Below, piece by piece: positions 21,177 through 26,738 of a DNA stretch of 64,000 nucleotides. A program made the position numbers and the translations under genes. This DNA comes from Chloroflexota bacterium. GTDB taxonomy: Bacteria > Chloroflexota > Dehalococcoidia > Lucifugimonadales > JADFKI01. Below the pieces are notes generated by a model. It searched no databases. It saw only the letters and a list, made by a program, of their open reading frames with translations, and was not told the origin of the DNA. The stretch lies in the NCBI GenBank assembly GCA_027623195.1, contig JAQBUT010000013.1, positions 1 through 64,000 on the forward strand. The letters are read 5' to 3'. Numbering within the stretch: position 1 is the first letter of the stretch; each line of letters begins with the position of its first letter.

Positions 21177-21815
21177 TTAAACGGTGGTTGCCATGAACTG
21201 CACGGTTCGGTCAGCAATCTCCTGTTCGTGGCCTCTCAGGCTATGATCGGTTTCGGGTATCTCTCTAAACTGAACCGGCTCTCGGACCTCATCTAGTTCT
21301 CGCTGCAACTCCGCCGAGTCCACGATGCGGTCGTTTTGCCCCACTATGAAAAGCTTCGGCCTCTTGTCACCGCGTATGGGGGATGCTTGGACAGCCGAGA
21401 TGGGCGGTGCGATTAAGATCAGGCTTGCAGCGTGCTTGTAGTTCCGCAGTCCCCGCAGTATGACGCCAGCGCCAAAGGAGTAGCCGACCAAGGCAATGCG
21501 CTTCTTATCGATTCCAGGCCAGTTGCGGGCCAGGTTCAGCGCAGCCTTGACGTCTTCCTGCTCCGTCTCCCCGTTGGTGAACTGCCCTTCGCTGCCCTCG
21601 ACGCCCCGGAAGTTGAAGCGCAGCGTGGCAATGCCCAATCGGTCCGCGTTGGTGCATATCGCCGTTACGATTGGACTATCCATGTTACCCCGCAGAGTCG
21701 GGTGGGGATGGCAGACCACCAGCATCGGGTAGGGCTGAGCGAAGTCCTCCGGCGTCGACAGTATCCCCTCAAGGGCTGCCTTTTTGCTTTCAAATCCTAC
21801 GGCTGTCTGTCTCAT
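21177..21815 (-). CDS. Alpha/beta hydrolase (paralog 2)
   Basis: CHPHP, RFNFRGV.GSEG, GYSFG, GQND, DH. Confidence 0.88.
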   Translation of the reverse strand: MRQTAVGFESKKAALEGILSTPEDFAQPYPMLVVCHPHPTLRGNMDSPIVTAICTNADRLGIATLRFNFRGVEGSEGQFTNGETEQEDVKAALNLARNWPGIDKKRIALVGYSFGAGVILRGLRNYKHAASLILIAPPISAVQASPIRGDKRPKLFIVGQNDRIVDSAELQRELDEVREPVQFREIPETDHSLRGHEQEIADRTVQFMATTV

Positions 21816-21822
21816 GCCGCCC

Positions 21823-22491
21823 CTACTGCACTTTGCCTTGATATTGCTGGCACAGCCACTCCTGAAAGAAATTGCCGGTCAATTCGCCAATGACGTCCAG
21901 GGAATTTGCAAAAAAATGGTCGGCGCCCTGGATCAGCTCTATCTGCTTTGGGTCCGAGAATCGCTTTGCAAGAAAGCCGAACTGAGCCGCCGGAAAATCA
22001 TGGTCGAACTCGCCGCAGATCAGGAGCTTCGGGTGAAGCATCTCATGGGCGCCCATCTCGTTGAAGACTCGGGAAGGGCAGGCTATGGACGCGATTGCCT
22101 GCGTCACTTCACCGTATGTCGACGCAATTAAGGCCACCGCTGCACCGAAGGAGTACCCAGCCAGCCCTATCCGGCTGGGGTCCACCTCGTCCTGTAAGGA
22201 TAGGAAGCTGAGCGCCTCCACAGCGTCGCTGATTTCACCGGAACCTTCGTCGAAGGAGCCCTCGCTCAGTCCAACGCCACGAAAATTGAAGCGCAGGGCC
22301 GCGATACCCGCCTCGCCAAGGTAGCGCACCAAGGCTGACACCACCGCGTTATCCATGTCGCCACCGTGCCTCGGATGTGGATGGCAGATCACCACTGCGG
22401 GGAGGCTGTCGCCGTCGTTCGGGAGGTGCAGCACTCCCTCCAGGGTTATGTCGCCGTTGGTGAAGCTGATATTTCTCTGTGATTTTGTCAT
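21823..22491 (-). CDS. Alpha/beta hydrolase (paralog 1)
   Basis: CHPHPRHGGDMDN, RFNFRGVG.SEG, GYSFG, GEFD, GADHFF. Start chosen at MTKSQR. Confidence 0.88.
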   Translation of the reverse strand: MTKSQRNISFTNGDITLEGVLHLPNDGDSLPAVVICHPHPRHGGDMDNAVVSALVRYLGEAGIAALRFNFRGVGLSEGSFDEGSGEISDAVEALSFLSLQDEVDPSRIGLAGYSFGAAVALIASTYGEVTQAIASIACPSRVFNEMGAHEMLHPKLLICGEFDHDFPAAQFGFLAKRFSDPKQIELIQGADHFFANSLDVIGELTGNFFQEWLCQQYQGKVQ

Positions 22492-22709
22492 TATTCGAAA
22501 GTTTGGCAAGCCTCTTTTACTGGGCCGCAAGCCAGTCAATCTTACGGTGAAGGGTTGGCTTTTGACAAGCAGGATTGTTAGAATTGGCGCAGTTACAGGC
22601 GCGGCGCAAACAACTAAAGCTCCTGACAGGTTCGCCTGGAAACGGCCCTATTGCCCCTGTGCGATAATTACTCTATCGAAAGATATTCCATCAACATTTG
22701 GAGGAAGAC

Positions 22710-23933: not shown

Positions 23934-25154
23934 ATGCTCTTAGTCTTTCGAAATGCCCGGTTCCGCCTGCTGTGGATAAGCGTAATCATCAACTACGTTG
24001 GCCTGATGACGTACTTCACGGTGCACGGTTGGCTTGCCCTTACCGTAAGCGATTCGGCATTCTGGGTAGGCGCAACTGCTGGAGTTAGCGGGCTGGGACT
24101 CATGGGATGCAGCGTCGTATCCGGCGTGCTGGTGGACAGGCTTAACCGCAAGAAGCTGATCATTGCCGCGCAGCTAGCTCAGGCCACGATGGCTCTGACC
24201 CTGGCGGTTCTGATCTTTACCGATCAGGTGGTGCTTTGGCACGTGATGCTGGTGGCGTTTCTCGACGGCACCTTCATGGCCATAAAAATCCCGTCGCGGT
24301 TTGCGCTGGTTCTGGATGTGGCAGGCCGCGAGAACTTGCTGAAGGGCACTGCCGCCAACTTCGCCGCCATGACGATGATGGGCATAGCAATTCCGCCTTT
24401 GGCCGGGTATATCGTTGGCGCGCACGACATAGCATGGGCCTACGTTATGATGAGCAGCGCCTTTGTCGTTTCCGCCATCGTCCTGGCGTTCCTTAGCGGC
24501 GTCACGCCCATAGTGCGCGCACGCATATCCTCTCCTCTGCAAGACTTGAAGCAGGGCTTTCGCTACGCCATCACAACGCCCCAGGTGAGGGCTTTGCTAC
24601 TGCTTACGCTTACGTCTGAAGCCTTCGGGTGGGCCCACGAGACGATGCTGCCTGTCATGGCGGGCAAGGTGCTGGAGGCTGGACCTCAAGGGCTGGGATA
24701 CCTGCTGTCAGCAGGCAGCGCGGGCGCGCTGGTCTCCACGCTGACAATGTCCAGCATGGGCGATATCAAGAATAAGGGCAGGGTGCTGATAGTGGGCTAC
24801 ATGGGATTCGGTTTTTTCTTGATCATGTTCTCCCAGTCGCCCTGGCTACCGCTGTCCATGTTACTAATCGGTTTGGCCTACGCCAGCGTGGCGGTGTACG
24901 AGACGACAGTTAGCACCTTGTTGCAGACCTCAGTCCCCGACGAGATGCGCGGGCGGGTGCTTAGCTTGCAGTCGCTTACCTGGGGCTTTACAGGCGCGTC
25001 AGGATTTCACACCGGAGCCATAGCAGCACTGGTGGGAGCGCCGCTGGCCATCTCCATAGGCGGTGGCATGCTCATCCTGAACGGCCTGCGTATGGTCCGC
25101 GGGATTGCCAGCCGATTCCAAGAGGCGCAGGTGGAGCCAGCGACCGGCGACTGA
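23934..25154 (+). CDS. MFS transporter (DHA3/EntS-like)
   Basis: GVLVDRLNRK, LQTSVPDEMRGRV, multiple TM segments. Confidence 0.9.
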   Translation: MLLVFRNARFRLLWISVIINYVGLMTYFTVHGWLALTVSDSAFWVGATAGVSGLGLMGCSVVSGVLVDRLNRKKLIIAAQLAQATMALTLAVLIFTDQVVLWHVMLVAFLDGTFMAIKIPSRFALVLDVAGRENLLKGTAANFAAMTMMGIAIPPLAGYIVGAHDIAWAYVMMSSAFVVSAIVLAFLSGVTPIVRARISSPLQDLKQGFRYAITTPQVRALLLLTLTSEAFGWAHETMLPVMAGKVLEAGPQGLGYLLSAGSAGALVSTLTMSSMGDIKNKGRVLIVGYMGFGFFLIMFSQSPWLPLSMLLIGLAYASVAVYETTVSTLLQTSVPDEMRGRVLSLQSLTWGFTGASGFHTGAIAALVGAPLAISIGGGMLILNGLRMVRGIASRFQEAQVEPATGD

Positions 25155-25190
25155 GGCCGCAGCACTACGATTATACGGACGTACAGAAAA

Positions 25191-25386
25191 CTACTGAGGT
25201 ACTCGGTCCGCGTTGTTGACGATTACTTCTGATGGGGCTTCTCCGAGGCCCTGCCTCCGCATTCAAGGTCAGTGGCTCATCATCTCGCTCATGGCCCTGG
25301 TTATAGGGGATGCTTTTCGTCGCTATGGCGACTAGCATTCCACCTAGTATTGCGCCGCCAAGTACTGATGCAAGATACCTTTTCAT
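25191..25386 (-). other. Cryptic small membrane-anchored Met-rich protein with a +1 frameshift and two in-frame UGAs (candidate U-P-U selenoprotein or pseudogene)
   Basis: MKRYLASVLGGAILGGMLVAIATKSIP, then +1 at CCCC (25306-25309), then ITRAMSEMMSH-UGA-P-UGA-MRRQGLGEAPSEVIVNNADRVPQ-TAG. Hairpin at 25235-25251 follows the UGAs. Confidence 0.5.
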
Positions 25387-25399
25387 TTCGGGCCTGCCT

Positions 25400-25651
25400 T
25401 TATGCGTGCCTGATTCCTCCCCGGAGAGAGTCCTGCAACTCCTCAAACTGCTCGGTGGTAATCTCGCCACGAGCAAGTCTTAACCGGAGAATATCCATTG
25501 GGGTCTCTCCGGAATCTGGGGGCGTATTCTTGGAGCTAACGAGTTTGGAGACTCCCCATATACCCAGTCCTATTACCGCGACCCAGAACAGCATCATGCC
25601 CATGCCAAAAAACGGCATCCACCACTGAAATCCTTGCTGAAAACCCCACAT
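25400..25651 (-). CDS. SHOCT-domain small membrane protein
   Basis: Met/Trp/Gly-rich N-terminus, one TM helix, SHOCT motif PMDILRLRLARGEITTEQFEE; SD AAGGAG. Confidence 0.88.
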   Translation of the reverse strand: MWGFQQGFQWWMPFFGMGMMLFWVAVIGLGIWGVSKLVSSKNTPPDSGETPMDILRLRLARGEITTEQFEELQDSLRGGIRHA

Positions 25652-25758
25652 TACCTGCTCCTTCGTGCCCTCGGAGTCATATCTGTATCGGAAGTTCGGC
25701 CTGTTTTAGACTCCGCCAGATGGCGCATTAGCCTAACATCAATTCTCGTCGGTTTGGT

Positions 25759-25806
25759 ATGAAGGAATCATGAGGAAACCGACAAATGCATGAAGATGTC
25801 GTGAAA
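25759..25806. promoter_or_regulatory. Two OmpR-family-type direct-repeat boxes
   Basis: ATGAAG-N5-ATGAGG (25759-25775) and ATGAAG-N5-GTGAAA (25790-25806), with 11-bp periodicity, upstream of the SHOCT gene. Confidence 0.55.
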
Positions 25807-25976
25807 TTCAGGGAATCAGAGGCAAGTTCCTTGAAATGCGCCGCCACTACATAGAGCGCTGCACCGAACGCTTCGCCCCGCCCATGACCGAAGAGGAGGA
25901 GCGAAAGCTTGCGGCGTAGGGCTGCACGGGGGCGAAGTGGTCAGTGGTTACACATGATGGCCGATCGAGGTTGTGT

Positions 25977-26738
25977 TTACTCGCTGCAATCATTGGGCAA
26001 TAGATAATGTGGCAGAATCGGACTGTTAGCTGTCAGCATGATCGTAGAAAGCCACATCAAATGATCAAAGGCAACTGAGTTCGATCGGTATGATTGCCAA
26101 CCTGGAAGTGCTTCCCCTTGCTCATCGACGAGATGAAGTGTACCGCTACCATCGCCGTAGTCAATAACAGAGCCCCTGTCCATAACAAAAATTCCATCGA
26201 GAATTTCGTTTGAAGAAACGGAATTGTCCGACATGTAGCCTTCAACGGACCCTTTTATCGCGTCGAGGCTAACCTGAGATTCAAAGGCAAATATGAACCA
26301 AGGCGGATGACCTAAGAATCTTGAGCTATCATCGCCATTTGACATCAGTATTCCTGTAAAAGGAGCGGCCTGTAACTGTTTGAATCGGCGGGATTTATCG
26401 ATGGATTCGGTCAATTCGGTACTTGTCAAATTTGTCTTAATCTCTCCTGCTGCTGATATGCCTTCTATGAAGAATAGACCGGGCTGGTCAGGTGTGAACG
26501 TAAATGGATGGTCTTCGGTTACGACCACAACGTCGGTTTGTGCCGAAGTATTGCCGTGGCTGTCGATTATCTCCCCATGGCCAATCTCTAGCCTCCGAGG
26601 GAGGTAATCGCGTAAAAATCTGCGAAATGTTTTCTCGACAGATTCTCCTTTGTTTCCGGCATGGTTGAAGGTAGCTCGCACCTCTTCGAGCCGGGCCTTC
26701 ATCTGTTTCTCTACCGCATCTATCTTGTCTTTCATCAT
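25977..26738 (-). CDS. DUF6602-like putative PD-(D/E)xK nuclease
   Basis: H.GNKGESVE..FLRDYLP..GEIIDS.G..SAQTDVVV..GEIKTNL; visibly more AT-rich than its neighbours. Confidence 0.7.
   Translation of the reverse strand: MMKDKIDAVEKQMKARLEEVRATFNHAGNKGESVEKTFRRFLRDYLPRRLEIGHGEIIDSHGNTSAQTDVVVVTEDHPFTFTPDQPGLFFIEGISAAGEIKTNLTSTELTESIDKSRRFKQLQAAPFTGILMSNGDDSSRFLGHPPWFIFAFESQVSLDAIKGSVEGYMSDNSVSSNEILDGIFVMDRGSVIDYGDGSGTLHLVDEQGEALPGWQSYRSNSVAFDHLMWLSTIMLTANSPILPHYLLPNDCSE

What the first reader, a model, noticed from the sequence alone, without database searches (positions are those of the whole stretch)
25191..25386. Hidden small protein with a candidate double-selenocysteine U-P-U motif behind a +1 shift
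Seen (minus strand): ATG at 25386 encodes a TM anchor MKRYLASVLGGAILGGMLVAIATKSIP. The 0 frame then gives unremarkable sequence. The +1 frame after ATC-CCC-T-ATA gives a Met-rich helix ITRAMSEMMSH, then TGA-CCT-TGA (25271-25263), then MRRQGLGEAPSEVIVNNADRVPQ-TAG, 64 aa in total. A hairpin GGGC-C-UC-[GGA]-GA-A-GCCC (25235-25251) has a G-first loop 18 and 24 nt after the two UGAs, extendable by AUG/CAU pairing. Established: bacterial SECIS elements are hairpins immediately 3' of UGA with a G in the apical loop; Met-rich and CxC motifs bind Cu(I); CCC-U is a +1 shift-prone context. This genome has selA, selC and a Sec-type selD. Inference: an undescribed Sec-x-Sec metal-binding or redox micro-protein. 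The shift could be a C-homopolymer assembly error, a real inactivating indel, or programmed recoding.
Basis: partly seen in the sequence, partly recalled or inferred. Interest (0 to 1): 0.85.

Follow-up and report, generated by a model that had tools for sequence, protein, structure and literature searches.

The report
Broken copy of uncatalogued membrane selenoprotein
This is a frameshift-broken copy of a real but apparently uncatalogued family of tiny membrane-anchored bacterial proteins that use selenocysteine, and intact relatives carry two selenocysteines one residue apart, probably to bind soft metals.

Summary
A same-genus genome (G002) has the gene unshifted, with both TGAs and a fully paired hairpin. 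The gene belongs to a wider family: a membrane anchor, a Met-rich helix, then Sec or Cys. Of 152 library relatives, 109 stop just before that column, 31 have Cys there and 5 short forms stop at the first UGA. In 11 of 13 loci seen as DNA, a TGA is followed 18-21 nt later by the same hairpin, read in two different frames, so the RNA is what is conserved. No Pfam or NCBIfam model fits, and no entry of a 2026 catalogue of 119 families matches by name or motif. The shift is not programmed. This copy lacks two bases; near-identical relatives in another study are in frame, and two source-study assemblies carry the lesion. It is most likely a recent pseudogene. Copies in two other genomes are also broken. 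Function is inferred only: soft-metal binding (about 50%) or redox (about 30%). Use of UGA1 as Sec is likely but not shown.

The parts
25400..25651 (-). Upstream gene in the same orientation: 83-aa membrane protein with a C-terminal SHOCT-like domain; its stop lies 13 nt before the selenoprotein ATG
   Evidence: Pfam SHOCT E 4e-5, 23.5 bits, under the cut-off of 27. Also upstream of the gene in G002 but in none of the 10 other family loci tested.
25393..25398 (-). Shine-Dalgarno-like GGCAGG, 6 nt before the ATG
   Evidence: read from the sequence; function inferred
25306..25386 (-). Codons 1-27: start, glycine-rich single transmembrane anchor, family-conserved Thr and Pro
   Evidence: conserved columns in alignment A6
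25303..25306 (-). Frameshift scar: one base (T, 25305) where relatives have a full Lys or Glu codon; two bases missing
   Evidence: G002 alignment; contigs of runs X3 and X6 are 2 bases longer here; library protein P0008
25272..25304 (-). Met-rich amphipathic helix, now out of frame
   Evidence: helix 9-50 in the low-confidence model of the G002 protein
25269..25271 (-). UGA1, inferred Sec; specific to the short form
   Evidence: in frame in G002; 5 of 152 library records end exactly before it
25263..25265 (-). UGA2, the family-wide Sec/Cys position
   Evidence: TGA in 11 loci; Cys in 31 of 152 library records
25235..25251 (-). bSECIS-type hairpin, 7-bp stem with one C-A mismatch here, GGA loop at 25244-25242
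25191..25262 (-). C-terminal tail to TAG; begins with the hairpin-encoded peptide, then poorly conserved
25171..25386 (-). 71-codon 0-frame ORF, the product expected from the broken allele: anchor plus a non-conserved tail, no Sec
   Evidence: no credible Pfam match

Best explanation
WHAT IT IS. A recently inactivated copy of a real small selenoprotein gene. The intact gene makes a 65-77 aa protein: one Gly-rich transmembrane anchor, a Met-rich helix, Sec-Pro-Sec and a loose tail. It is the short form of a wider family whose long form has a longer Met helix and one Sec or Cys, often as C-x-P-x-x-x-U. DECODING (inferred from conservation). SelB binds the G-loop hairpin in the coding sequence and delivers Sec-tRNA. 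The hairpin lies 18 nt behind the family-wide UGA2 and 24 nt behind UGA1, both inside the consensus range of 16-37 nt, so one hairpin probably serves both codons in turn. THIS GENOME (supported by sequence comparison). Two bases were lost after codon 27, so translation stays in the 0 frame and gives anchor plus junk without Sec. FUNCTION (inferred, about 50%). A membrane-tethered trap or hand-over site for soft metal ions such as Cu(I), Ag(I) or Hg(II): Met thioethers on the helix gather the ion and the selenol pair (Sec-x-Sec, Cys-x5-Sec, or Sec from two subunits) binds it tightly. The gene is accessory, patchy and often lost.
For: Shown: unshifted U-P-U gene in G002. Of 152 library records (classed by pattern), 109 end just before the column, 31 have Cys, 5 end at the UGA1 column and 7 are other. 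For two records (P0060, P0159) the exact locus is in hand and the stop is TGA. TGA plus hairpin in 11 of 13 loci; 73 of 77 cells paired, one pair changed on both sides and two on one side; slid controls pair 17-58%. The hairpin is read in frame 0 in 6 loci and in frame 2 in 5. Some Cys forms keep either hairpin-encoded peptide, and Cys form P0125 lies in a branch of support 96 with 20 truncated forms (quick tree), which suggests Sec-to-Cys change. Lesion: runs X1 and X2 match the window with no difference or gap; X3 (two contigs) and X6 have two more bases. Other losses: G416 split by an IS-like element, G818 ending at TAA without a hairpin. For metal binding: 6-17% Met in five translated members, a second Cys in 67 of 140 long forms, Cys-rich variants, and no enzyme fold found. 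That Met and Cys/Sec bind soft metals is recalled knowledge.
Against: U-P-U was seen as DNA in only two genomes plus contigs of one other study; the stop codon of the other short-form records was not seen. The hairpin is nearly invariant, so covariation does not exceed the shuffle control (110 of 500 shuffles reach the paired share). This genome's hairpin alone (-6.6 kcal/mol) misses the consensus limit of -7.5. No Cys-form DNA was seen, so loss of the hairpin with Cys is untested. Co-occurrence with Sec machinery is weak evidence: selA is in 98 of 141 genomes of the class. X1 and X2 are of one study and may be the source of this DNA; contigs drop rare alleles. Neighbours are not conserved and mostly unrelated to metals. 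The structure model is poor (pLDDT 57.5, pTM 0.27).
Confidence: 0.78

Rival explanations
1. Programmed or leaky +1 frameshift at CCC-U yields the U-P-U protein in this genome.
For: CCC-U is shift-prone (recalled). The hairpin and both TGAs are still intact here, and the shifted product would lack only one residue.
Against: The site is not conserved: G002 and the X3 contig have a Lys codon after Pro and need no shift. The next 0-frame codon is an ordinary Tyr codon. An intact 3' part is also expected of a young pseudogene.
Confidence: 0.06
2. The shift is a sequencing or assembly error and the organism's gene is intact.
For: The genome is a 65-contig assembly. Both matching runs come from one study, platform not on record.
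Against: Separate contigs of two samples (depth 35 and 7.3) carry the same letters. The difference is two bases fewer plus a T that the relative lacks, not a shortened homopolymer run.
Confidence: 0.07
3. In the short form UGA1 is a true stop: the protein is anchor plus helix, and UGA2 with the hairpin is a relic of a long-form ancestor.
For: Sec-less forms exist: G818 ends at TAA, and P0093 lacks the Cys/Sec segment. No C-P-C or C-P-U homologue was found among 152 records. The one short Cys form, P0016, has a single Cys.
Against: TGA-CCT-TGA and the hairpin are the best-conserved DNA of the gene between G000 and G002 (9 of 9 and 16 of 17, against 58-64% in anchor and helix), which a dead 3' region would not be. 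The tail stays open and alignable. 24 nt lies in the consensus range, and this genome's own candidate SECIS spacings run from 16 to 33 nt.
Confidence: 0.07
4. Same gene and same lesion, but the function is redox: a membrane-tethered diselenide or selenenylsulfide switch, like a bacterial counterpart of SELENOK/SELENOS. This is a rival on function only.
For: Most selenoproteins are redox-active (review PMC13188914, section 7). C-x5-U and U-x-U can close rings (recalled). The genome holds six AhpC/TSA-like genes with an in-frame TGA.
Against: No thioredoxin or other redox fold and no conserved redox partner nearby. The spacing varies between U-x-U, C-x5-U and a lone U, which suits a ligand set better than a tuned redox pair (inference).
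Confidence: 0.3
5. A selenium-sensing leader ORF whose UGA stalling controls a downstream gene.
For: Short ORF with tandem UGAs. Two earlier notes of this scan propose such leaders elsewhere (unchecked).
Against: In G000 and G002 the next gene is convergent, so there is nothing downstream to control. The protein sequence is conserved, with a membrane anchor and Cys orthologues.
Confidence: 0.03

Closest known systems
Bacterial selenoproteins decoded by SelB and an in-frame bSECIS (consensus model in PMC13188914, section 5)
   Same: In-frame UGA, Cys orthologues, 3-nt G-first loop on a 7-bp stem 18-24 nt downstream, host with selA, selB, selD and tRNA-Sec.
   Different: No match over a cut-off to any NCBIfam or Pfam family. 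No enzyme or thioredoxin fold found: only an anchor, a Met helix and a tail.
Closely spaced double-Sec proteins: rhodanese-related UxU form (PMC1976440, passage), TsoB UxxxxU, NF041115 UxxU, FmdB UxxU (PMC13188914, Table 1)
   Same: Two Sec within a few residues, so U-x-U has precedent.
   Different: No sequence relation found; those are folded domains, this is a single-pass micro-protein with U-P-U.
TsoA, LULAXC motif selenoprotein (NF045695)
   Same: Weak profile matches over the Met-rich helix: 4 of 48 members at E up to 0.01, best 0.001.
   Different: 12-18 bits against a cut-off of 170; half the length; no LULAxC motif. Probably compositional.
Eukaryotic SELENOK/SELENOS single-pass selenoproteins (architecture recalled; start of the abstract of 10.1101/2021.05.15.444318 seen in a search listing)
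   Same: One membrane anchor, with Sec in a poorly ordered region.
   Different: No homology tested or found; Sec is internal, 10-25 residues from the end; Met-rich; bacterial SECIS.
Met-rich soft-metal binders such as SilE/PcoE and the CueO Met-rich region (recalled, not tested)
   Same: Met-rich helices without a catalytic fold.
   Different: Membrane-anchored, with Sec or Cys; no hit to those families.

Membership tests
Bacterial selenoprotein (SelB/bSECIS) | In-frame UGA conserved at one column in several genomes | tested here: met
   11 of 13 loci with DNA; exceptions L046 (TAA, no hairpin) and L042 (5' piece only)
Bacterial selenoprotein (SelB/bSECIS) | Cys orthologues at the UGA column | tested here: met
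   31 of 152 library records for the UGA2 column; none with Cys at both columns
Bacterial selenoprotein (SelB/bSECIS) | [quoted passage not shown] | tested here: met
   18-21 nt in 11 loci, 24 nt for UGA1
Bacterial selenoprotein (SelB/bSECIS) | Hairpin energy of -7.5 kcal/mol or lower | tested here: inconclusive
   Met in 9 of 11 excised hairpins; G000 -6.6 and G1144 -6.5 miss it; the 40 nt after UGA1 in G000 fold at -9.4
Bacterial selenoprotein (SelB/bSECIS) | Host has Sec machinery | tested here: met
   G000: selA, selB, selD, tRNA-Sec. At least one component in each of the 8 other genomes; G002 selB under the cut-off; background 98 of 141
Bacterial selenoprotein (SelB/bSECIS) | Intact reading frame through the UGA in this genome | tested here: not met
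   two bases missing at 25306-25303; met in G002
Bacterial selenoprotein (SelB/bSECIS) | Se incorporation shown experimentally | not testable with these tools
   needs 75Se labelling or mass spectrometry
TsoA (NF045695) | Score over 170 bits and LULAxC motif | tested here: not met
   best about 18 bits
Any catalogued NCBIfam or Pfam family | Score over the curated cut-off | tested here: not met
   NCBIfam: 48 members of A6; Pfam: 5 translated members
Programmed +1 frameshift gene | Shift site and broken frame conserved among relatives | tested here: not met
   G002, three contigs in X3 and X6, and P0008 are in frame
Met-rich soft-metal binding proteins | Metal binding, or a conserved place in metal-resistance operons | tested here: inconclusive
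   no conserved neighbourhood in 11 loci; binding not testable here

The most novel reading that the evidence does not exclude
A fold-less single-pass selenoprotein family of Chloroflexota in which one tiny hairpin decodes two UGAs one codon apart. The resulting Sec-Pro-Sec clamp on a Met-rich helix acts as a membrane-tethered high-affinity trap for Cu(I) or Hg(II): a non-enzymatic use of selenocysteine, with natural U-x-U, C-x5-U, lone-U and Cys-only versions for comparison. A bolder add-on, leaky +1 shifting that keeps this copy partly alive, has about 6%.
Probability: 0.4. Interest if true: 0.8.

Novelty: new variant of a known kind. Interest (0 to 1): 0.62.

Why it matters
The family is hidden by annotation: 114 of 152 library records are cut at the predicted Sec codon and, where named, mostly called hypothetical. 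It adds an architecture to the bacterial selenoproteome, a membrane anchor plus Met helix with no enzyme fold found. The 45 nt from TGA-CCT-TGA to the end of the hairpin are a minimal natural substrate to test whether one bSECIS can serve two UGAs at 18 and 24 nt. The hairpin kept in two reading frames shows RNA-level selection cleanly. The copy in this window is probably dead, so work should use the G002 gene.

Tried and rejected
Single-sequence searches with the fused reading found nothing; profiles were needed. The G002 protein against 401 genomes of the order gave one true hit, G002; the other rows (E 0.003-0.1) I took as chance matches to the Gly-rich anchor, after reading 5 of them. L039 is a chance M-M-S-R-C-P-C match in an unrelated frame. 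L051 and L052 are not family members. No paralogue in G000. The AUG/CAU extension of the hairpin was rejected. No conserved metal-regulator palindrome: the pattern hit 2 of 11 upstream regions, and only L046 looks like a CsoR-type site (consensus recalled). No sigma-70 promoter match at 25050-26000. Foldseek against PDB gave no match, and the PDB sequence search gave only designed helical proteins and weak rows. The ESM Atlas, queried with Cys form P0068, gave only unnamed clusters; a search of its named clusters for the U-P-U form stays open. Topology by charge was undecided (mean net charge +1.4 before and +2.1 after the anchor, 139 records). No RNA holder listed. The careful tree did not finish; the quick tree resolves little. 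Earlier-findings look-ups by sequence were blank. No complex prediction was run.

Full report
1. Observation. The minus strand has ATG at 25386, a hydrophobic anchor, a 0 frame of 71 codons, and in the +1 frame a Met-rich stretch, TGA-CCT-TGA (25271-25263) and TAG at 25193. The hairpin at 25251-25235 has a GGA loop 24 and 18 nt behind the two TGAs. The genome has selA, a TGA-containing selD and tRNA-Sec in the window, and selB elsewhere. The gene follows a SHOCT-like membrane protein gene by 13 nt and faces a convergent MFS gene.

2. An intact orthologue. A DNA search of 41 genomes hit two besides G000: G004 shares only the SHOCT gene, while G002 (same genus) has the whole gene in one frame, 77 codons, with TGA-CCT-TGA in frame and a fully paired hairpin. 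The alignment puts a 2-base gap in G000 just after the Pro codon. Identity is 9 of 9 over TGA-CCT-TGA and 16 of 17 over the hairpin, but 47 of 81, 21 of 33 and 19 of 41 over anchor, helix and tail. Locus L038 gives the same ORF and is counted once; its record is titled Chloroflexota.

3. The shift. I laid 4 of 7 listed runs, all as contigs. X1 and X2 (one study, possibly the source) match the window with no difference or gap, at depth 35 and 7.3. In the other study, one contig each of X3 and X6 has 72 letters in place of 70 over 25296-25367, and a second X3 contig has two bases put in at 25303. Applying that contig's listed differences gives an open frame with Lys after the Pro. No difference is listed at the TGAs or the hairpin, but 10 of 50 rows were not shown and differences near contig ends are not listed. 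Library protein P0008, a close relative, is in frame with Glu there. So the lesion is real in this population, recent, and not a conserved recoding site. Loss recurs: of 9 genomes holding the gene, G416 has it split by an IS-like element (read by eye) and G818 ends at TAA without a hairpin.

4. The family. Profile searches gave 22 representatives, 135 clusters of which 120 were listed, and 20 clusters: 152 distinct records. By pattern, 109 end just before one column, 31 have Cys in it, 5 short forms end at the UGA1 column, and 7 are other, among them a short form with one Cys (P0016) and a form lacking the segment (P0093). All 5 members of the P0006 cluster are 50 aa long. Long forms have a longer Met helix, and 67 of 140 have C-x-P-x-x-x before the column. 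Genome searches show a patchy spread, G000 not counted: 1 true hit in 400 of the order, 3 of 400 in the class, 2 of 400 in the phylum, 4 of 151 around G1110 (two new), 1 of 27 around G768. Of 13 loci, 11 have TGA at the column and the hairpin 18-21 nt behind it. None was a Cys form.

5. The hairpin. Over 11 sequences 73 of 77 cells pair; one pair changes on both sides (C-G to G-C in G416) and two on one side; slid controls pair 17-58%. The shuffle control is not exceeded (110 of 500), because the stem hardly varies. The stronger argument is frame: the same DNA is read in frame 0 in 6 loci and in frame 2 in 5. It meets the consensus model of PMC13188914 (loop of 3-9 nt, G first or second, 16-37 nt); the energy limit is met in 9 of 11, not in G000. 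Candidate SECIS elements of seven other TGA genes of G000 lie 16-33 nt behind the codon, three of them with a 3-nt G-first loop. All 9 genomes have at least one Sec component, but so do 98 of 141 of the class, and the tRNA-Sec model also passed its cut-off in 5 of 14 control genomes.

6. Mechanism. Shown by comparison: the reading frame of the family, the Sec/Cys column, the hairpin and the lesion. Inferred: that UGA1 is also Sec (UGA2 can only be reached through it, and the 3' part is under selection); that one hairpin serves both codons; and the function. The model of the G002 protein is one long helix (9-50) and a disordered tail at low confidence, without structural matches. I favour soft-metal binding (about 50%) over redox (about 30%) and others (about 20%), from the Met content, the variable Cys/Sec ligand set and the lack of a catalytic fold. 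Gene neighbours give little: an SBF-family transporter divergent from the G1110 copy and a small Cys-repeat protein behind the G1144 copy, against helicase, epimerase, MFS and other unrelated genes elsewhere.

7. Comparison with what is known. No NCBIfam model passes a cut-off for 48 members, and no Pfam model for 5. TsoA scores 12-18 bits against 170. Table 1 of PMC13188914 (119 families) has no entry that fits by name or motif; I did not compare sequences for entries without an NCBIfam or Pfam model. U-x-U is known from a rhodanese form (PMC1976440). Library searches found no description of the family. Papers seen: PMC13188914, abstract, section 5, parts 1-2 of 3 of section 7 with the whole table, and passages; PMC1976440, PMC12013277 and PMC13745706, passages only; PMC13326102, passages and a supplement search in a file cut when stored, so its family table was not seen; 10.1101/2021.05.15.444318, listing and start of the abstract only; Haft and Tolstoy 2025 (PMC12013261), nothing, as it is not held. 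Those unseen sources and closed bioRxiv supplements may bear on novelty.

8. Verdict. This copy is most likely a young pseudogene, not a recoding site. It works like a SelB/bSECIS selenoprotein but belongs to no catalogued family tested. Novelty: new variant of a known kind. Interest 0.62.

Noticed in passing
L042 (G416:C467) and L043 (G416:C292): The family gene is split over two contigs by an IS-like element with about 22-nt imperfect terminal inverted repeats and an 8-nt target duplication; the 3' piece keeps the TGA and a hairpin with a compensatory change (repeats read by eye).
   Followed up: partly
L046 1330-1700, minus strand (G818): The family gene ends at TAA before the Sec column, without a hairpin; a palindrome 45 nt before the start resembles a CsoR-type operator (consensus recalled).
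   Followed up: partly
G000 C42:6659-7039, C3:46883-47251, C53:18073-18435, C65:80027-80392, C1:6135-6446, C56:189632-189991: Six AhpC/TSA-like ORFs with one in-frame TGA each and candidate SECIS hairpins; a selenoprotein-rich genome.
   Followed up: partly
window 25256-25244, minus strand: A competing 5-bp hairpin with an AGG loop lies 16 nt behind UGA1 (pair probability about 0.25). It could be a second SECIS for UGA1, but G002 has a mismatch in it.
   Followed up: partly
library proteins P0025, P0064, P0070, P0092, P0094: A Cys-rich subgroup with 4-5 Cys behind the anchor, forming one well-supported branch; good material for metal-binding tests.
   Followed up: no
window 25977-26738, minus strand: 253-aa DUF6602 protein upstream of the SHOCT gene.
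   Followed up: no
window 21177-22539, minus strand: Two tandem, similar alpha/beta hydrolase genes.
   Followed up: no
G000 C41:82473-82688, minus strand: A distant paralogue of the SHOCT gene (32% identity); its downstream region was not read.
   Followed up: no
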